64,000 nucleotides of DNA from Candidatus Woesearchaeota archaeon (GCA_043817645.1 JBDRGP010000024.1:412-64411), one strand, 5' to 3'. Shown: positions 4,484 to 11,623, counted from the first letter of the stretch. Notes: generated by a model not told the origin, from the sequence alone. Translations and numbers: made by a program.

Positions 4484-5870
4484 GTACGTGTTTTGCTAAC
4501 CGAAAATAGAATATACTAGTTATAATTATTAATTTCATGGGGGGAGGAGGAAAGAGGTGCAGATACCCCAAGAATTAAAGGAACTCAGTAAAAGAGACTT
4601 GATAAGGATAATTCTTGATTTGCAGAAGAGGCTTGCAATATATGAGAATGCACATATTCCTTCTTCCAAGAAGAGATTTCCTGAGAGAAAGAAACCATCC
4701 AACAGCAAGATAGGTGCTCCAAAAGGACATCCGGGTACGACAAGAGAAAGGAAAGAGCCAACGGAGAGGATAGATGTAGAAGCAGTTCAGTGTAAGCATT
4801 GCCGTGATTTGCTGGATAAGCCATTTAAGCAAGAGAAGAAGGTAATAGAAGAGATACCAGACCCCCAACCAGTGAGAGTTATTGAATTTCTAATCGATCA
4901 CTATAAATGTCCTTCATGTAATGAAATAACAGTAGCTTCTCACCCAAGCTTACCTAAGGAAGGCACTTTAGGTAATAACTTACAGGCACAAATAGCTTTG
5001 ATGAAATACGAAGATAGACTGCCTCACAGAAAGATAGTACAAACACTAAACAGACAACATGATTTGGATTTAGCACCCAGTACAATACTAGAGGTGACAA
5101 ATAGGGTTGCCAAAAGAGTTGAACCTGAATACAATAAGATAAAACAAACAATAAGAAAGTCTCCTAATGTTTACTCAGATGAAACAGGACACAAAGTACA
5201 AGGGAAGAACTTTTGGTTATGGGGGATTGCAATTAAGATAGCAGTATTATTTGCTATAAGGAAGAAAAGAAGCAAAGAGGTTTTAGAGGAATTGCTTGGA
5301 GATAATTATAAGGGAATAATCTCATGTGATGGTTGGACTACATATTCCAAGTATTCGGATAACATTCAGAGATGTTGGGCGCATATACTGAGAGAAGCAG
5401 AATATTTAGCAGAACAACATGAATCTGCCAAGTTATTTTATCAGGAACTTAGAGAATTATATAACCTGGTAGACAGGGTTACAGAGCAAGATTCTCTAGA
5501 AGCAAGAAAGAGATTATACTTAAAGTGCATTGCTCAAATGGATAGATTAGTTGGAAGGATGGAAGCATATAAGGAATTACGTAAATTTGCAGTGAAGCTG
5601 GAGAATGGCAAGGTACATTTCTTTACTAGGGTTTTGTATCCTTTTGTAGAGGCTACTAATAACATTGCTGAGAGATCATTGAGGGAACCAATTGTACAGA
5701 GAAAGATTATCGGAACCCTAAGGAACGAGAAAGGTATCAGAATAACAGAAGTATTGCTTAGTGTGCTAATGACGTGGAGGATGCGAGGATTAAATACTTA
5801 TGGAGGATGCGAGGATTAAATACTTATGATGAGCTTAGAAGAGCCTTAAGCTCCTAAGCAAAACACGTAC
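4484..5870. mobile_element. IS66-family (ISBst12-like, single-ORF) insertion sequence with 14-bp perfect terminal inverted repeats and 8-bp target-site duplication GGTAATAG
   Basis: Left IR GTACGTGTTTTGCT (4484-4497). Right IR AGCAAAACACGTAC (5857-5870). Flanking direct repeats ggtaatag at 4476-4483 and 5871-5878. An 8-bp TSD is characteristic of IS66. Confidence 0.75.
4557..5819 (+). CDS. IS66-family transposase (TnpC-like)
   Basis: N-terminal leucine zipper. CxxC…CxxC zinc finger (CKHCRD…CPSCN). DDE region SDETGHKV, CDGWTTY, CWAHILRE and TNNIAERSLRE are IS66 signature motifs. Confidence 0.8.
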   Translation: MQIPQELKELSKRDLIRIILDLQKRLAIYENAHIPSSKKRFPERKKPSNSKIGAPKGHPGTTRERKEPTERIDVEAVQCKHCRDLLDKPFKQEKKVIEEIPDPQPVRVIEFLIDHYKCPSCNEITVASHPSLPKEGTLGNNLQAQIALMKYEDRLPHRKIVQTLNRQHDLDLAPSTILEVTNRVAKRVEPEYNKIKQTIRKSPNVYSDETGHKVQGKNFWLWGIAIKIAVLFAIRKKRSKEVLEELLGDNYKGIISCDGWTTYSKYSDNIQRCWAHILREAEYLAEQHESAKLFYQELRELYNLVDRVTEQDSLEARKRLYLKCIAQMDRLVGRMEAYKELRKFAVKLENGKVHFFTRVLYPFVEATNNIAERSLREPIVQRKIIGTLRNEKGIRITEVLLSVLMTWRMRGLNTYGGCED

Positions 5871-8479: not shown

Positions 8480-8716
8480 ATGGGGCGAGGTATGCTACAT
8501 AAGTTATTATTGGTTTTGATTGTAATTATTACGTTGCTTTCATTAGTCACTGTAGTAACTTTATTTGGGCTTTCTGTTACTGGAAGTACTGTTAAGAGCT
8601 TAGATAGTTCTGTGATTACCTTGTCTTTTGTTATTGGAGAGCTGATTATAATTGCTTTGATTGCTTTGATTGTTGGTTTAATTAGGTTTAGAAGGAGGGA
8701 TAGGGGGCTGGTTTAG
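8480..8716 (+). CDS. small membrane protein
   Basis: Two hydrophobic helices with a basic RFRRRDR tail. Confidence 0.3.
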   Translation: MGRGMLHKLLLVLIVIITLLSLVTVVTLFGLSVTGSTVKSLDSSVITLSFVIGELIIIALIALIVGLIRFRRRDRGLV

Positions 8717-8955
8717 TTCCCCTTTATTCCTAGAATTTCTTTTATTTTTTCTCTGTCAAAACCTGTGTATACTTTATCATCTACTTTTAGTACAGGGGTG
8801 TTGGTCTGACCTGATATTTCAAAAAGCTCTTTTTGTCTTTCTAGGTTTCTTGATACTTCTACGAATTCGCATTCTACTCTGTGGTACATTAGTAGGTTTT
8901 TAACCATATCAGAATAAGGATCCCCTGTTTTTGTGTATAATTTTATTTTTGGCAT
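8713..8955 (-). CDS. glutaredoxin/thioredoxin-fold protein with active-site Cys pair replaced (GDPYSD instead of CPYC)
   Basis: KIKLYTKTGDPYSDMVKNLL…TPVLKVDDKVYTGFD matches the glutaredoxin layout but lacks both redox cysteines. Confidence 0.45.
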   Translation of the reverse strand: MPKIKLYTKTGDPYSDMVKNLLMYHRVECEFVEVSRNLERQKELFEISGQTNTPVLKVDDKVYTGFDREKIKEILGIKGN

Positions 8956-8956
8956 T

Positions 8957-9685
8957 TTATTCTGTGTGTTGTTTCCACATCTCGACTGCTTGTCTTCTTG
9001 TTTCTGGTATTGAGACTCCTACATCTAGGTATTTTACTTCTGAGCCTTTTGAGGTCAATAGGTTTTTAAGCCATTCGGATTCATATAACGGTTTTATTTT
9101 TTTTTGGAATTCCAGATTTTCAAATTCACATTTATCTTTTTTGAATCTGCCTGATAATCTTTTGATGACTTCTTCTACGTTATGGATTGTTGGGATGATT
9201 AATAAAGAAGGCGGGTTATCTAATTGAAATCTATTTCCTTCTATTTGCATTATCTCTTCTGGTGTTAGTGAGATATTCTGTTCTTTGGCTTGGACCTGTT
9301 GGTAAACTAATGATGAGACTACAGATCTGCTTTGCAGGATTTTTATTCCTTTTTCTAGTGCTGGTAAAATAACTCTTTTCATTAGTATTAGTCTATCTAG
9401 TGCAAATGAATGTGCTGTGGATAGTGCTGAGTATATCCTTTTGTTGTCTGCTGTTATTTCTCCTCTAATTGATGCACCAATCCAAGCTCTTGTTGGTTCT
9501 GCTGAAATAAGCATATTGTAATCTTCTAATTCGTGAATCTCGGGATGTCTATGGTGTTCTTTCCAGAAGTCTTTTAGGTCTAGAATCTTTGTCCCTTTCT
9601 GTTCTTCATATTCTTTGATAGCTAACTCTATTTCTCCCTTTCCAATTCCGTCTAGACCGTCTATTACGACGAATGTTCCTCTCAT
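8957..9685 (-). CDS. tmk: thymidylate kinase-like P-loop nucleotide kinase
   Basis: FVVIDGLDGIGKGE P-loop in the Tmk position with a DRLILMK region. The lysine/threonine of the canonical GKS/T is altered (GKGE), so the assignment is tentative. Confidence 0.45.
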   Translation of the reverse strand: MRGTFVVIDGLDGIGKGEIELAIKEYEEQKGTKILDLKDFWKEHHRHPEIHELEDYNMLISAEPTRAWIGASIRGEITADNKRIYSALSTAHSFALDRLILMKRVILPALEKGIKILQSRSVVSSLVYQQVQAKEQNISLTPEEIMQIEGNRFQLDNPPSLLIIPTIHNVEEVIKRLSGRFKKDKCEFENLEFQKKIKPLYESEWLKNLLTSKGSEVKYLDVGVSIPETRRQAVEMWKQHTE

Positions 9686-11121
9686 TTTAGTTCTAATGAT
9701 ATATCTTGGGTGTATTTTAACCCGTTTTTTAATGCAATTTCTGCTTTTTGTAGTTCTGCTCCTATGTCCAAAGCGTGACCTATTTCTGAAATTACCTGAG
9801 CGTGAGCTAATTTGGCTATAATTTTCATTGTTGCGTCATCTTCATAAACCTTGATCGGGTTACCTGATAGGTCTTTATGGGTGACTCTTATTTTGCTATC
9901 TATTATTTCTATTCTAAAGTTTCCTTTTGGATCGAATCTCAGAGTGTAAGATTGTCTATATCTTTCTGTTATTTCTTTAGCGTCTGGCCAATTTTTTTCA
10001 TATAAGTGTGCTGAGCCTGAGATTATGGTTAGTGTGCCTAGTTTTAAGGGTGTTTCTTTTGAGATTTCTTTTACTATTATTCCCTGCAATTTTCTTAATG
10101 CTAGTGCATTTCTTGGCCAGGCTTCATACATGTCATTGCTTCTGATGTATGTAGTTAAATGTAGGATATCATCTTGCACTAATGGATGCACAAAATTTAT
10201 GCAGGGTGGTTCGTCTCCTCCAGAATCTTTATCATAATCCCATGTAAAGGCGATTGCTCTTCTTTGGTAAGGTTTTTTTCTTAACGTATCAATGATTTTT
10301 TGAATTTGATCTACTTTGCTTCCATCTTTTAGCTCTGCTTCTCTTAATCTTTGACCGTATGTGTAAGTTACGTCTGGAATTTTTTTACTGGTTGTTACTT
10401 GAGGAATATAGTCTTCTAGTTCTTCTTTTGTGAACTGAAAGTATTCTTCCCATTTTGGGTTGTTAGGATCTTCTTCTTCGATAACAACACTGAGGTTGAT
10501 TAATTCTTTTTGATCCCCGCCATAAGAAGCTTTTTTTACTGTACCGAACCTCATAATATTGTGCAGGAGTTCCAACCAGGCTTTTCCAACTGTTTTTTCT
10601 CTTATTTTGTGAATGCTGGGATCTGTTGGATATTTCTCTGGAGCTTCTATTTTGTTTTCTGGAAAAATTTCTGGAGAGCCATAACTCTCTTTTTTTTCTA
10701 AAGATTTTATTTTTTCAATTACTTCTTCTGATTGTTTTTCTCTCATGTCAATTATCTCAATGTTCTTTCTGAAATTTTCAATTGCTTCTTTTGGAATTTC
10801 TTTATGAATCCTTGCGATTTTTATTCCTTTGATATTATGGTTTTCGTCAATGCCCTTCTCTTTTAGTGTTAGGAGAGATCCTGCTGATTTTGAAAGGTCT
10901 TGACCTATGAGAATTAAATACCTAATGTTTTTATTTGATAAACAATTTCTGATTAAGAAACTTATGCCTCCGTTGAAATAAAGTTGGCCTGCTGCAGCGT
11001 ATAATGAAGGGTCTATTTTTGAAGTAATTACGTTTCTTGGACTCCAGAGTGTTACTATGCCAATATTAGACTCTAAGTTTCCTACAAGAATATTTTCTTT
11101 TTCATAAATAGGCCAATCCAA
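9682..11121 (-). CDS. thyA: thymidylate synthase (ThyA-family) core fused to an N-terminal MtrA-like domain and a C-terminal DUF4346-like domain
   Basis: ThyA motifs RRAIAFTWD, PPCINFVH (catalytic Cys), YIRSNDMYEAWPRNALAL and SGSAHLYEKN. N-terminus DWPIYEKENILVGNLESNIGIVTLWS…NKNIRYLILIGQD resembles the MtrA WP…G.Y / NPNIRFLILCG fold. Confidence 0.6.
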   Translation of the reverse strand: MDWPIYEKENILVGNLESNIGIVTLWSPRNVITSKIDPSLYAAAGQLYFNGGISFLIRNCLSNKNIRYLILIGQDLSKSAGSLLTLKEKGIDENHNIKGIKIARIHKEIPKEAIENFRKNIEIIDMREKQSEEVIEKIKSLEKKESYGSPEIFPENKIEAPEKYPTDPSIHKIREKTVGKAWLELLHNIMRFGTVKKASYGGDQKELINLSVVIEEEDPNNPKWEEYFQFTKEELEDYIPQVTTSKKIPDVTYTYGQRLREAELKDGSKVDQIQKIIDTLRKKPYQRRAIAFTWDYDKDSGGDEPPCINFVHPLVQDDILHLTTYIRSNDMYEAWPRNALALRKLQGIIVKEISKETPLKLGTLTIISGSAHLYEKNWPDAKEITERYRQSYTLRFDPKGNFRIEIIDSKIRVTHKDLSGNPIKVYEDDATMKIIAKLAHAQVISEIGHALDIGAELQKAEIALKNGLKYTQDISLELK

Positions 11122-11197: not shown

Positions 11198-11623
11198 CTA
11201 TTTGATGCCTGTATGTCCCAGGCCGCCTTTCCTATCGGTCTCTTCTAGTTTTTTTGTTTCTTCTATTTCTGCTTTTAAATAGGGTTGAATGATCATTTGG
11301 GCTATCCTGTCATTTTTGTTTATTTTGAAGGGTTCTTCTCCTAAGTTTTTTAGGATGATTTTGACTTCTTCTCTGTATCCTGCGTCTAAAACTCCTCCTA
11401 AGACTGTTATATCTTTTTTTGCTGCCAGACCGGATCTGTCCCATATTAAGCCTACATGATTTTTTGGGATTGCTACCTTTATCCCGGTTTTTATGACTTC
11501 TTTTTTTCCCGCTTCTATTGTTTTTTCTTCTGCGGATCTTAGATCGAATGCTGCATCGTCCTCATGAATGTAACCTGGTAGAGAGATTTCGGGATCTAAT
11601 CTTTGAATTCTGACTTTATTCAT
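11198..11623 (-). CDS. dut: dUTP diphosphatase
   Basis: 141 aa with the dUTPase motifs PGYIHEDDAAFDLRS, GLIWDRSGLA, GVLDAGYRGE and RIAQMII. Confidence 0.7.
   Translation of the reverse strand: MNKVRIQRLDPEISLPGYIHEDDAAFDLRSAEEKTIEAGKKEVIKTGIKVAIPKNHVGLIWDRSGLAAKKDITVLGGVLDAGYREEVKIILKNLGEEPFKINKNDRIAQMIIQPYLKAEIEETKKLEETDRKGGLGHTGIK

What the first reader, a model, noticed from the sequence alone, without database searches (positions are those of the whole stretch)
9682..11121. Thymidylate synthase core sandwiched between an MtrA-like N-terminal domain and a DUF4346-like C-terminal domain, within a dUTPase–ThyA–Tmk cluster
The central ~250 aa carry ThyA catalytic motifs (PPC…, RSNDMYEAW…, SGSAHLY). 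The first ~120 aa resemble the tetrahydromethanopterin S-methyltransferase subunit A fold (WP…G.Y…NKNIRYLILIGQD). The last ~90 aa resemble the domain that normally follows MtrA-like modules. ThyA inserted within or fused to an MtrA-like protein is an unusual architecture. It could indicate coupling of thymidylate synthesis to a different one-carbon carrier, or regulation of it. The neighbouring Tmk-like kinase (GKGE P-loop) and the Cys-less glutaredoxin-like gene are also atypical.
Basis: partly seen in the sequence, partly recalled or inferred. Interest (0 to 1): 0.65.

Follow-up and report, generated by a model that had tools for sequence, protein, structure and literature searches.

The report
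Thymidylate synthase with two extra domains
This is a real gene for a thymidylate synthase (the enzyme that makes the DNA base T) whose small catalytic core sits between two extra cofactor-type domains; the same design is conserved in hundreds of ultra-small archaea and bacteria, and I found no study of what the extra domains do.

Summary
Window 9682-11121 (minus strand) encodes a 479-aa protein with three domains: MtrA-like (aa 1-146), ThyA core (aa 173-392) and PterinBD-DUF4346 (aa 397-479). All three score above Pfam thresholds. It is NCBI MFH1592300.1, from a Woesearchaeota MAG.

It is not a one-off. A scan of species-representative genomes found 573 relatives, and the 80 best all span the three domains. 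They come from DPANN archaea, CPR/Patescibacteria and Chloroflexia.

The core is the minimal 'methanogen-type' ThyA, and every dUMP-binding and catalytic residue is invariant. Operon partners (Tmk, dCMP deaminase, dUTPase) and fusions to Tmk or dCMP deaminase point to dUMP-to-dTMP synthesis.

MtrA-to-DUF4346 also exists as a two-domain, His84-bearing corrinoid-type module without ThyA, so ThyA sits in that module's linker. In the ThyA family the cobalt-ligand His84 is never present (Ser in 69 of 83), and Glu54 and the meander motif are lost.

Most likely the flanks are a repurposed cofactor (pterin)-binding module that completes a minimal core. This is inferred, not shown. I found no literature on the architecture. 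Verdict: new variant of a known kind, moderately high interest.

The parts
9682..11121 (-). Whole gene: three-domain thymidylate synthase, 479 aa plus stop (stop codon 9682-9684); NCBI MFH1592300.1
10684..11121 (-). N-terminal MtrA-like Rossmann-type domain (aa 1-146). Family-invariant residues are W26, Y48, G52, R58, G73 and D75. S79 (codon 10885-10887) replaces the cobalt ligand His84 of MtrA.
   Evidence: Pfam and NCBIfam; alignment to PDB 5LAA; residue tallies; MtrA ligands from PMC4915002
10606..10683 (-). Linker (aa 147-172, YGSPEIFPENKIEAPEKYPTDPSIHK). Its first part matches the tail of soluble MtrA homologues (NF002126 aligns to aa 173). Lowest model confidence (pLDDT 53 for aa 161-170).
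9946..10605 (-). Minimal 'methanogen-type' ThyA core (aa 173-392). Catalytic Cys307 (codon 10201-10203), with R287/R288, R327, S328, D330, N338, H372, Y374 and Y255.
   Evidence: TIGR03283 153 bits; Foldseek to ThyA structures E about 1e-14; invariance; alignment to E. coli ThyA and the core-only paralogue
9685..9933 (-). C-terminal PterinBD-DUF4346 domain (aa 397-479): three-stranded beta meander plus two helices. Invariant or near-invariant residues are D397, G400, H449 (codon 9775-9777), G454, E456, Q472 and D473.
   Evidence: Pfam; domain model pLDDT 94.5; no PDB match by sequence or fold; tallies; exhaustive search
11198..11623 (-). dUTPase (Dut), upstream in the same cluster; supplies dUMP
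   Evidence: TIGR00576 139 bits, above cutoff; dUTPase neighbours in 16 of 84 loci
8957..9685 (-). dTMP kinase-like gene (Tmk), start overlapping the target's stop by 4 nt; atypical P-loop GLDGIGKGE
   Evidence: Tmk neighbours in 29 of 84 loci; Tmk fused to the three-domain protein in L078
8713..8955 (-). Cys-less glutaredoxin-fold gene (D-P-Y-S in place of C-P-Y-C), last gene of the cluster
   Evidence: conserved in L004 and L006
11639..12049 (-). YjbQ/UPF0047 family gene, first gene of the co-directional cluster (link to the pathway unknown)

Best explanation
The gene encodes a working thymidylate synthase that methylates dUMP to dTMP by ordinary ThyA chemistry. Cys307 attacks C6 of dUMP, and a reduced pterin one-carbon cofactor bound against Asp330 donates the carbon.

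Its catalytic core is the minimal 'methanogen-type' ThyA. This type lacks two elements of canonical ThyA that close over the folate: the helix-B segment and the C-terminal tail.

The core is inserted into the linker of an older two-domain module, corrinoid-type MtrA followed by DUF4346. In this family the MtrA-like half has lost its cobalt ligands. The two flanking domains are most likely retained as a cofactor-handling unit that binds or holds the pterin cofactor (ring or tail) next to the minimal core. That would be useful in tiny-genome organisms that cannot make the cofactor.

Shown: the three-domain anatomy, the catalytic residues, the family size and spread, the genomic coupling to dUMP supply and dTMP use, the loss of corrinoid ligands, and the existence of the ThyA-less module. 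Inferred: the enzymatic activity, the identity of the cofactor, and the role of the flanks.
For: ThyA identity:
- Pfam and TIGR03283 hits.
- Foldseek matches to many ThyA structures at E about 1e-14, TM 0.63-0.68 normalised to the target.
- C307, R327, N338, E206 and Y255 are invariant, and S328, D330, H372, Y374 near-invariant, in 83 family members from DPANN, CPR and Chloroflexi.
- Asn at the dUMP/dCMP-specificity position and Asp at the pterin-contacting position are interpreted from established knowledge of E. coli N177 and D169.

Pathway coupling:
- Within 3 kb of the gene in 84 loci: Tmk 29, dCMP deaminase 24, dUTPase 16, dCTP deaminase 7 plus 4.
- Natural fusions of the three-domain protein to Tmk (L078, P0189) and to dCMP deaminase (L070, P0284).
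- Similar contexts.

Minimal core:
- Only Pfam profile positions 80-235 of 266 are matched.
- The alignment shows the E. coli 38-79 segment and the C-terminal tail missing, as in the 202-aa core-only paralogue that passes the TIGR03283 cutoff.

Pre-existing module:
- NF002128 has MtrA-like at about 111-277 and DUF4346 at about 288/304-369.
- P0295 is MtrA (132 bits, His84 and Glu54 kept) followed after 17 aa by DUF4346.

Pterin association of DUF4346: it is also the C-terminal domain of the archaeal DHPS-like family TIGR00284, and Pfam names it PterinBD.

Flanks under selection: their signature residues are near-invariant and lie on the loops after beta1, beta2 and beta3, which form MtrA's ligand face. 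They stay intact even in two variants whose ThyA residues have decayed.
Against: - No activity or ligand-binding data exist, and 'PterinBD' is a database name whose basis I could not trace.
- Stand-alone minimal ThyA genes in methanogens and Altiarchaeota have no MtrA-like or DUF4346 gene within 5 kb in 4 of 4 loci examined, so the core does not universally need such partners.
- In 5 of 84 loci a canonical thyA lies beside the three-domain gene, with folA or a folA-glyA fusion in four of them. One further locus has a ThyX fusion. That argues the three-domain enzyme is not simply redundant with a folate-dependent ThyA.
- Dead-core variants that keep their flanks suggest the flanks also have a role independent of catalysis.
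- I could not inspect model coordinates, so the packing of the flanks against the active site is unknown. Only pTM 0.80 hints at a defined arrangement.
- DUF4346 has no structural neighbour in the PDB to support any ligand assignment.
Confidence: 0.5

Rival explanations
1. Built-in recycling. The flanking module substitutes for dihydrofolate reductase by re-reducing the dihydropterin made by the ThyA core, analogous to DHFR-TS fusions of protists and plants. The organism could then run ThyA without folA.
For: No DHFR lies within about 6 kb in 79 of 84 loci, or anywhere in the 64-kb window. DHFR appears only where a canonical thyA is also present (4 loci). folA is found in only 54.8% of 4,581 CPR genomes, while glyA and folD are found in about 80% (PMC11974145). 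The MtrA fold is Rossmann-like (PMC4915002).
Against: No DHFR domain is detected. The N domain has no glycine-rich dinucleotide-binding or flavodoxin-type phosphate-binding loop after beta1; the sequence there is IGIVTLWSPRN (direct reading). Absence of folA from a 12-kb neighbourhood says little about the rest of the genome. No redox cofactor site is evident.
Confidence: 0.12
2. Corrinoid relay. The MtrA-like domain still carries a cobamide in a His-off mode, as in corrinoid iron-sulfur proteins. DUF4346 binds a methyl-pterin, and the methyl group is passed through cobalt to the C5 of Cys-activated dUMP. That would give a ThyA that needs no hydride from the pterin and makes no dihydrofolate.
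For: The ancestral module is a true corrinoid-type MtrA joined to DUF4346 (P0295). A conserved Ser/Thr (76 of 83) caps helix alpha3 exactly where His84 sits. Some tail-pocket positions are kept: Gly57 to G52, Asn64 to N59. The His-off precedent comes from my own knowledge of CFeSP, not from a test here.
Against: His84, Glu54, Asn82, Tyr18 and the GAIPF-x-EN meander, the residues PMC4915002 lists as binding cobalamin, are all lost. Asp330, which contacts the pterin ring in canonical ThyA, is near-invariant (82 of 83), arguing for direct pterin binding in the core. Known pterin-to-cobalt methyl transfer uses a TIM-barrel domain, not an 85-aa domain (general knowledge).
Confidence: 0.07
3. The flanks do not take part in catalysis or cofactor supply. 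They act as a regulatory, oligomerisation or partner-binding unit, or as an autonomous small-molecule binding protein that merely travels with ThyA.
For: Two lineages keep the N and C domain signatures intact while all ThyA catalytic residues have decayed, and these genes are not in nucleotide clusters (P0186, P0209). Stand-alone minimal cores manage without such partners. The linker between the N domain and the core has low model confidence.
Against: The three-domain order and near-invariant polar residues in both flanks are maintained across DPANN, CPR and Chloroflexi, next to an active-looking core. DUF4346 recurs on two other pterin-linked protein types, which fits a ligand role better than a purely structural one.
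Confidence: 0.2
4. The protein is not a dTMP synthase but a ThyA-superfamily enzyme with a different outcome, for example a dUMP hydroxymethylase or another C5 modification. That would explain why some genomes keep a canonical ThyA or ThyX beside it.
For: A second TS-type gene is adjacent in 9 of 84 loci: five canonical thyA, one core-only, two divergent TS-like, one ThyX fusion.
Against: In most loci, and in this window, it is the only TS-like gene. It is fused to Tmk, whose substrate is dTMP. Its core is closest to TIGR03283 thymidylate synthases. A modified-base pathway conserved in hundreds of cellular species from three distant lineages would be unexpected.
Confidence: 0.06

Closest known systems
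Methanogen-type thymidylate synthase (NCBIfam TIGR03283; about 200-240 aa proteins of methanogens, Altiarchaeota and Methanobacterium virus PhiF1)
   Same: Same minimal core. The window protein scores 153 bits on TIGR03283 and 61 bits on the general ThyA model TIGR03284. It aligns end to end with the viral 210-aa enzyme and with a 202-aa core-only paralogue that passes the cutoff. The catalytic residues are the same.
   Different: Those enzymes are single-domain and, in four loci checked, have no MtrA-like or DUF4346 neighbour. This one carries 170 extra residues in front and 85 behind. It scores just under the equivalog cutoff of 174.55.
Canonical ThyA (E. coli thyA, PF00303; EC 2.1.1.45)
   Same: Same fold. 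Same nucleophile and dUMP-binding set: Cys146/C307, Arg166/R327, Ser167/S328, Asp169/D330, Asn177/N338, His207/H372, Tyr209/Y374, Tyr94/Y255, Arg126-127/R287-288.
   Different: It lacks the E. coli 38-79 segment (helix B region) and the C-terminal tail that closes on the folate. It is usually not next to folA. It is flanked by two foreign domains.
MtrA and soluble MtrA homologues (PF04208; PDB 5LAA, 5L8X; PMC4915002)
   Same: The N domain aligns over about 145 residues to the crystallised MtrA domain (E 7.6e-15). It shares the Rossmann-like topology and some scaffold and tail-pocket residues: G52, N59, N63, R67.
   Different: There is no His84 in any of 83 members (Ser 69, Thr 7, Cys 3), no Glu54, no GAIPF-x-EN meander, no membrane anchor and no Mtr partner genes nearby. 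It scores far below the MtrA equivalog cutoffs.
Two-domain MtrA-DUF4346 proteins (NCBIfam NF002128; example P0295)
   Same: Same two domains in the same order. The DUF4346 halves are closely similar (P0295 scores 82.7 bits on this family's C-domain profile).
   Different: Those proteins have no ThyA between the domains (17-30 residue linker) and keep the cobalamin-binding signature.
Bifunctional DHFR-TS of protists and plants
   Same: A ThyA fused to a second domain that handles the same pterin cofactor. The analogy motivates the recycling hypothesis.
   Different: There is no DHFR domain here. The structural alignment to DHFR-TS covers only the TS part (TM about 0.35, rmsd above 20 A). Domains sit on both sides of the core rather than one.
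Archaeal dihydropteroate synthase-like protein with C-terminal DUF4346 (TIGR00284)
   Same: It shares the C-terminal DUF4346 domain (profile positions 417-496 of 497). Both host enzymes act on pterins.
   Different: The catalytic domain is different (DHPS TIM barrel rather than ThyA). No MtrA-like domain was detected in that profile by this protein's N domain.

Membership tests
Thymidylate synthase ThyA (PF00303 / EC 2.1.1.45) | Profile HMM match above the curated threshold | tested here: met
   PF00303 75.8 bits against cutoff 24.3
Thymidylate synthase ThyA (PF00303 / EC 2.1.1.45) | Catalytic Cys in the P-C motif, and the Arg/Ser/Asp/Asn/His/Tyr dUMP-binding set | tested here: met
   C307, R327, N338, E206 and Y255 invariant; S328, D330, H372, Y374 in 82 of 83; R287 in 78 of 83
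Thymidylate synthase ThyA (PF00303 / EC 2.1.1.45) | ThyA fold | tested here: met
   Foldseek E about 1e-14 to many ThyA structures, TM 0.63-0.68 normalised to the target, on a model with pLDDT 90.8
Thymidylate synthase ThyA (PF00303 / EC 2.1.1.45) | Canonical folate-closing elements (helix-B segment, free C-terminal tail) | tested here: not met
   Only profile positions 80-235 of 266 matched. The segment is absent in the alignment. The BLASTP alignment to T4-like td ends at aa 387. The same holds for methanogen-type ThyA.
Thymidylate synthase ThyA (PF00303 / EC 2.1.1.45) | dUMP-to-dTMP activity with a methylene-pterin | not testable with these tools
   Indirect support only: operons and fusions with Tmk, dCMP deaminase and dUTPase
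Methanogen-type ThyA (TIGR03283 equivalog) | Score at or above the curated equivalog cutoff (174.55 bits) | tested here: not met
   153.2 bits for the window protein; 169-170 bits for the L066 and L018 members; 200 bits for the core-only L010 paralogue. It is the best-matching family but just under the cutoff.
MtrA (PF04208; tetrahydromethanopterin S-methyltransferase subunit A) | Domain-level HMM match | tested here: met
   PF04208 55.1 bits against cutoff 25; phmmer to PDB 5LAA E 7.6e-15
MtrA (PF04208; tetrahydromethanopterin S-methyltransferase subunit A) | Cobalt-ligating His84 with its Glu54 hydrogen-bond partner | tested here: not met
   His84 position is S79 (S 69, T 7, C 3, A 2, V 1, G 1 of 83). 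Glu54 position is F49 (S 64, Y 6, F 5, D 4 among 83)
MtrA (PF04208; tetrahydromethanopterin S-methyltransferase subunit A) | Meander consensus GAIPF-Y/F-x-EN and the other cobalamin contacts (Asn82, Tyr18, Asn55) | tested here: not met
   The region reads IARIHKEIP (family consensus x-I-D-K-E-I-P). Asn82 to S/T/N variable, Tyr18 to L/I/V. Only G57 to G52 and N64 to N59 are kept
MtrA (PF04208; tetrahydromethanopterin S-methyltransferase subunit A) | Equivalog-level score and membership of an mtrA-H gene set | tested here: not met
   TIGR01111 54.7 bits against cutoff 249. No other Mtr subunit was seen among the annotated neighbours
PterinBD-DUF4346 (PF14251) | Profile HMM match above threshold, including the conserved His-Ala motif | tested here: met
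   55.6 bits against cutoff 29.6. H449 is invariant and A450 is present in 67 of 83
PterinBD-DUF4346 (PF14251) | Pterin binding (implied by the Pfam name) | not testable with these tools
   Association only: it is found on DHPS-like, MtrA-like and ThyA proteins. No solved structure by sequence or fold. No paper found
Bifunctional DHFR-TS | A DHFR (PF00186) domain fused to ThyA | tested here: not met
   No PF00186 hit. DHFR occurs only as separate genes in 4 of 84 loci

The most novel reading that the evidence does not exclude
The flanking MtrA-like/DUF4346 module changes the cofactor economy of ThyA. One version is re-reduction of the dihydropterin in cis. Another is delivery of the one-carbon unit by a route that never produces dihydrofolate, such as a His-off corrinoid or a second pterin site. 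Either way, this widespread family would be a third way of making thymidylate without DHFR, besides ThyA+DHFR and flavin-dependent ThyX. It would explain many 'thyA-positive, folA-negative' genomes among CPR and DPANN organisms.
Probability: 0.18. Interest if true: 0.85.

Novelty: new variant of a known kind. Interest (0 to 1): 0.6.

Why it matters
Thymidylate synthesis is essential and is a classic drug target, and only two enzyme solutions (ThyA with DHFR, and ThyX) are established.

- **An unstudied form.** This is a conserved form of ThyA present in hundreds of CPR, DPANN and Chloroflexia species. Databases label it simply 'thymidylate synthase' or 'DUF4346 protein', and I found no experimental or comparative study of it.
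- **Cofactor economy.** If the flanks handle the cofactor, they bear on how ultra-small symbionts that cannot make folate or methanopterin run one-carbon chemistry. They also bear on the old 'life without DHFR' question, and on the still-uncharacterised archaeal ThyA enzymes (PMC9931769).
- **A function for DUF4346.** The protein gives a testable handle on a domain of unknown function found in about 2,000 representative protein clusters.
- **Annotation caveat.** MtrA-like domains in DPANN and CPR genomes can belong to this enzyme and lack the cobalamin ligands. They should therefore not be read as remnants of methanogenesis. A recent reconstruction places MtrA (arCOG03221) in the archaeal ancestor (PMC13473441). 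I could not test whether that arCOG includes these proteins.

Tried and rejected
1. I asked whether DUF4346 is just the diverged canonical C-terminus of ThyA. tblastn matches of T4-like td reached aa 439, but BLASTP shows the real alignment stops at aa 387. Rejected.
2. Rosetta-stone neighbourhood test: stand-alone minimal ThyA genes do not sit next to MtrA-like or DUF4346 genes (0 of 4 loci). No stand-alone MtrA-like or DUF4346 ORFs occur in the 84 family loci.
3. The search with the N domain alone returned only 4 short MtrA homologues. It gave little on architecture, though P0123 and P0124 later served as His84-positive comparators.
5. Literature: searches for 'DUF4346', 'PterinBD', 'MtrA-like'+pterin, MJ0301 and accession numbers found nothing relevant. 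MtrA with thymidylate synthase gave one irrelevant paper. Papers on methanogenesis remnants, Woesearchaeota genomics, CPR folate metabolism, Patescibacteria gene exchange (one horizontally acquired thyA, no domain detail) and archaeal thymidylate metabolism do not mention the fusion.
6. Phage and plasmid collections contain no three-domain relative.
7. The Chloroflexi neighbourhoods were uninformative.
8. The window contains no DHFR, SHMT, ThyX or canonical ThyA.
9. I considered a coevolution-based contact analysis but judged about 200 sequences too few for a 470-column alignment.
Full report
**Observation**

The ORF at 9682-11121 on the minus strand is real. It is 479 aa with a TTG start, preceded by a G-rich Shine-Dalgarno-like stretch, and its stop overlaps the start of the next gene by 4 nt. 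Pfam finds three domains, each above its curated threshold:
- MtrA, aa 2-146 (55.1 bits).
- Thymidylat_synt, aa 224-397 (75.8 bits).
- PterinBD-DUF4346, aa 397-473 (55.6 bits).

NCBIfam places the core (aa 173-380) on TIGR03283, the 'methanogen-type' thymidylate synthase, at 153 bits, against 61 bits on the general model TIGR03284. The rest of the window carries archaeal housekeeping genes such as proteasome, exosome and SBDS. The exact protein is NCBI MFH1592300.1, 'MAG: thymidylate synthase [Candidatus Woesearchaeota archaeon]'.

**How common it is**

The architecture is not a curiosity of this genome. The homologue search found 372 proteins, and nearly all of the 120 best listed have the same three Pfam domains at 39-73% identity. 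573 of 600 candidate stretches encode a relative, and the 80 best all span residues about 1-478. I did not inspect the other 493.

The 80 best come from three groups:
- DPANN archaea: Woese-, Aenigmat-, Nano-, Micr-, Pace- and Iainarchaeota.
- CPR/Patescibacteria: Kerfeld-, Nealson-, Wolfe-, Parcu-, Buchanan-, Paceibacteria and Saccharibacteria-labelled bins.
- Three Chloroflexi genomes, including Candidatus Chlorohelix and a Chloroflexia MAG.

A rough neighbour-joining tree interleaves bacterial and archaeal clades, yet the nearest neighbour is from the same domain of life in 80 of 83 cases. This suggests a few old inter-domain transfers followed by vertical descent. The tree is only a distance tree. 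No plasmid or phage record has the architecture.

**The core**

The AlphaFold model is confident (pLDDT 90.8, pTM 0.80). It matches dozens of ThyA crystal structures at E about 1e-14.

In 83 family members the following are invariant or nearly so, with E. coli equivalents from the alignment:
- C307 (Cys146, the nucleophile).
- R327/S328 (Arg166/Ser167).
- D330 (Asp169).
- N338 (Asn177).
- H372/Y374 (His207/Tyr209).
- Y255 (Tyr94).
- R287 (Arg126).

From established ThyA enzymology, Asn at position 177 specifies dUMP rather than dCMP, and Asp169 contacts the pterin ring. Their conservation therefore argues for ordinary dUMP methylation with a pterin bound in the core.

The core is 'minimal'. 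Only Pfam profile positions 80-235 of 266 are matched. The alignment lacks the E. coli 38-79 segment and the C-terminal tail that closes over the folate. The same is true of a 202-aa core-only paralogue in locus L010, which passes the TIGR03283 cutoff at 200 bits, and of the 210-aa enzyme of Methanobacterium virus PhiF1.

**Pathway context**

I called and clustered ORFs in 84 loci; one of these is a duplicate contig of another. Genes lying within 3 kb of the three-domain gene were (families read by eye from representatives, several confirmed by Pfam):

| Neighbour | Loci |
|---|---|
| dTMP kinase | 29 |
| dCMP deaminase | 24 |
| dUTPase | 16 |
| small AAA-type kinase | 14 |
| dCTP deaminase | 7 (plus 4 of a larger form) |
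| Ndk | 5 |

Two natural fusions act as Rosetta stones. One joins the three-domain protein to Tmk (L078, 692 aa; also P0189). The other joins it to dCMP deaminase (L070, 648 aa; also P0284). Independent contigs show the same company. This supports dUMP as substrate and dTMP as product.

**The flanks**

The N domain aligns over about 145 residues with the crystallised MtrA domain (PDB 5LAA, E 7.6e-15). Wagner et al. (PMC4915002) define MtrA's cobalamin site as follows:
- His84 ligates cobalt.
- Glu54 and the GAIPF-x-EN meander form the hydrogen-bond linkage.
- Asn82, Asn55, Tyr18, Val61, Lys52/Thr53, Gly57 and Asn64 make further contacts.

Mapped through the alignment, this family has Ser at the His84 position (S 69, T 7, C 3, others 4 of 83; never His). 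It has Ser or Phe at Glu54 and aliphatic residues at Tyr18. It has no meander motif. It keeps only Gly57 (G52) and Asn64 (N59) plus scaffold residues. So it fails the defining features of a cobalamin-binding MtrA.

It nevertheless has its own near-invariant set: W26, Y48, G52, R58, G73, D75 and S79-G80. These lie on the loops after beta1, beta2 and beta3, the face that holds the ligand in MtrA.

The C domain (three-stranded meander plus two helices; model pLDDT 94.5) is even more conserved: D397, G400, H449, G454, E456, Q472, D473. It has no relative among solved structures by sequence or by fold (best Foldseek E 0.16).

**Origin of the architecture**

The NCBIfam profile NF002128 (390 positions) is matched by the N domain at about 111-277 and by the C domain at about 288/304-369. 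An exhaustive profile search with the C domain found 2,023 representative proteins at E 0.001 or better, 747 of them at 1e-10 or better. Among them, P0295 is a strong MtrA domain (132 bits) followed after 17 residues by DUF4346, with no ThyA. Its MtrA half keeps Glu54, His84 and the meander, as do the stand-alone homologues P0123 and P0124.

MtrA followed by DUF4346 is therefore an older, corrinoid-type two-domain module. In the present family a minimal ThyA occupies its linker, and the corrinoid ligands have been lost. DUF4346 is also the C-terminal domain of the archaeal dihydropteroate-synthase-like family TIGR00284. All three host types deal with pterins, which is presumably why Pfam now calls it 'PterinBD'. 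I could not find a publication behind that name.

**Mechanism**

The best-supported reading is a genuine dTMP synthase whose minimal core is completed or served by a repurposed cofactor-binding module. The core lacks the elements that canonical ThyA uses to clamp the cofactor. The flanks are attached at the two ends of the core. They are strongly conserved, and they descend from domains associated with pterin chemistry. Everything about the role of the flanks is inference.

Several observations caution against a simple story:
1. Stand-alone minimal ThyA genes in Methanocorpusculum, Methanoculleus and Altiarchaeota-type genomes have no MtrA-like or DUF4346 neighbour (0 of 4).
2. In five loci a canonical thyA lies beside the three-domain gene, and four of these also carry DHFR, twice as a DHFR-SHMT fusion. 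One further locus has a Tmk-Tmk-ThyX fusion. The enzyme may therefore not be redundant with folate-dependent ThyA.
3. Two variants (P0186, P0209) keep the flank signatures while every ThyA catalytic residue has decayed, and they sit outside nucleotide clusters. The flanks thus have value on their own.

**Rivals**

A DHFR-like recycling role is attractive. No DHFR is seen near the gene in 79 of 84 loci or anywhere in the window, and folA is found in only 55% of CPR genomes (PMC11974145). However, no reductase-type nucleotide-binding motif is visible, and neighbourhoods do not establish genome-wide absence.

A His-off corrinoid methyl relay cannot be excluded, since a conserved Ser/Thr sits at the His84 position and the ancestor was corrinoid-type. 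Most cobalamin contacts are gone, though, and the pterin-contacting Asp of the core is near-invariant.

A purely regulatory or structural role, and a non-dTMP product, are less likely but remain open.

**Novelty**

Databases already display the domain architecture and name the protein thymidylate synthase. Within the searchable literature I found no description or test of it. That includes papers on MtrA structure, methanogenesis remnants, Woesearchaeota genomics, CPR folate metabolism, Patescibacteria gene exchange and archaeal thymidylate metabolism. I therefore rate it a new variant of a known kind. The enzyme class is familiar, but the form is widespread, conserved and uncharacterised, and it makes the questions of cofactor use and DHFR dependence in ultra-small microbes directly testable.

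Noticed in passing
window 8957-9685 (-): The Tmk-like kinase has the P-loop GLDGIGKGE, with Gly where Walker A normally has Ser/Thr. Pfam Thymidylate_kin matches only aa 54-204, and TIGR00041 scores 67.5 bits, below its cutoff of 83.25. One other member of the 29-locus Tmk cluster shares the GKGE ending, while typical members read GKST or GKAT.
   Followed up: partly
window 8713-8955 (-); L004 7484-7723; L006 10504-10740: An 80-aa glutaredoxin-fold protein has D-x-Y-S in place of the C-P-Y-C redox motif. It is conserved next to or near the three-domain gene in the closest relatives. Function unknown.
   Followed up: partly
L090 6001-7203 (P0186); L091 6001-7143 (P0209): These variants of the family keep the MtrA-like and DUF4346 signatures, but every ThyA catalytic residue is lost (no P-C, no R-S-N-D, no Asn338). 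They are located away from nucleotide-metabolism genes.
   Followed up: partly
L027 4182-5999; L053 5290-7011: DHFR-SHMT fusion proteins (605 and 573 aa) sit in Woesearchaeota between a canonical thyA and the three-domain gene, so a complete thymidylate cycle and the three-domain enzyme share one cluster.
   Followed up: partly
L031 5412-8426: A 1004-aa Tmk-Tmk-ThyX fusion lies about 1.9 kb from the three-domain gene in a Woesearchaeota MAG.
   Followed up: no
L010 1377-1985 (-): A 202-aa core-only ThyA ends right after SAHIYL and scores 200 bits on TIGR03283 (above cutoff), in a Woesearchaeota genome that also has the three-domain gene 4 kb away. Together with its relatives named as Altiarchaeota MAGs, it shows the 'methanogen-type' model is not restricted to methanogens.
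   Followed up: partly
L022 486-1694; L046 7817-8770: Two further divergent TS-like genes (402 and 317 aa; TIGR03283 70-78 bits) lie adjacent to the three-domain gene. I did not check their catalytic residues.
   Followed up: no
L092 30-1430 (P0295): An MtrA-DUF4346 protein with an intein-like insertion (Pfam Intein_splicing) at the front of the MtrA domain, on a 1.6-kb contig.
   Followed up: no
P0320 (631 aa): A protein combines a RuvC_III (Cas9-type nuclease subdomain) hit at aa 4-205 with a DUF4346 hit at aa 497-561. It may be a real odd fusion or an assembly or gene-calling artefact.
   Followed up: no
L012, L019, L014, L023, L032, L058, L064, L081 (record titles): MAGs labelled 'uncultured Gammaproteobacteria', 'Methanosarcinales' or 'Bacilli' carry family members that nest inside CPR or DPANN clades in the tree. 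The bin labels are probably wrong.
   Followed up: partly
window 4557-5819 (+): An IS66-family transposase (DDE_Tnp_IS66, E 1.7e-45) lies a few kb from the cluster.
   Followed up: no
window 1-64000: G-over-C skew on the plus strand is strongly positive along almost the whole window (cumulative 9.4). It dips to near zero at 8-12 kb and 50-54 kb, where the long ORFs are on the minus strand. This looks like a coding-strand effect.
   Followed up: no
PMC13473441: A 2026 reconciliation study infers MtrA (arCOG03221) in the last archaeal common ancestor with PP 0.92-0.99. MtrA-like domains embedded in DPANN thymidylate synthases could affect such inferences if they fall in that arCOG. Not checked.
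   Followed up: no
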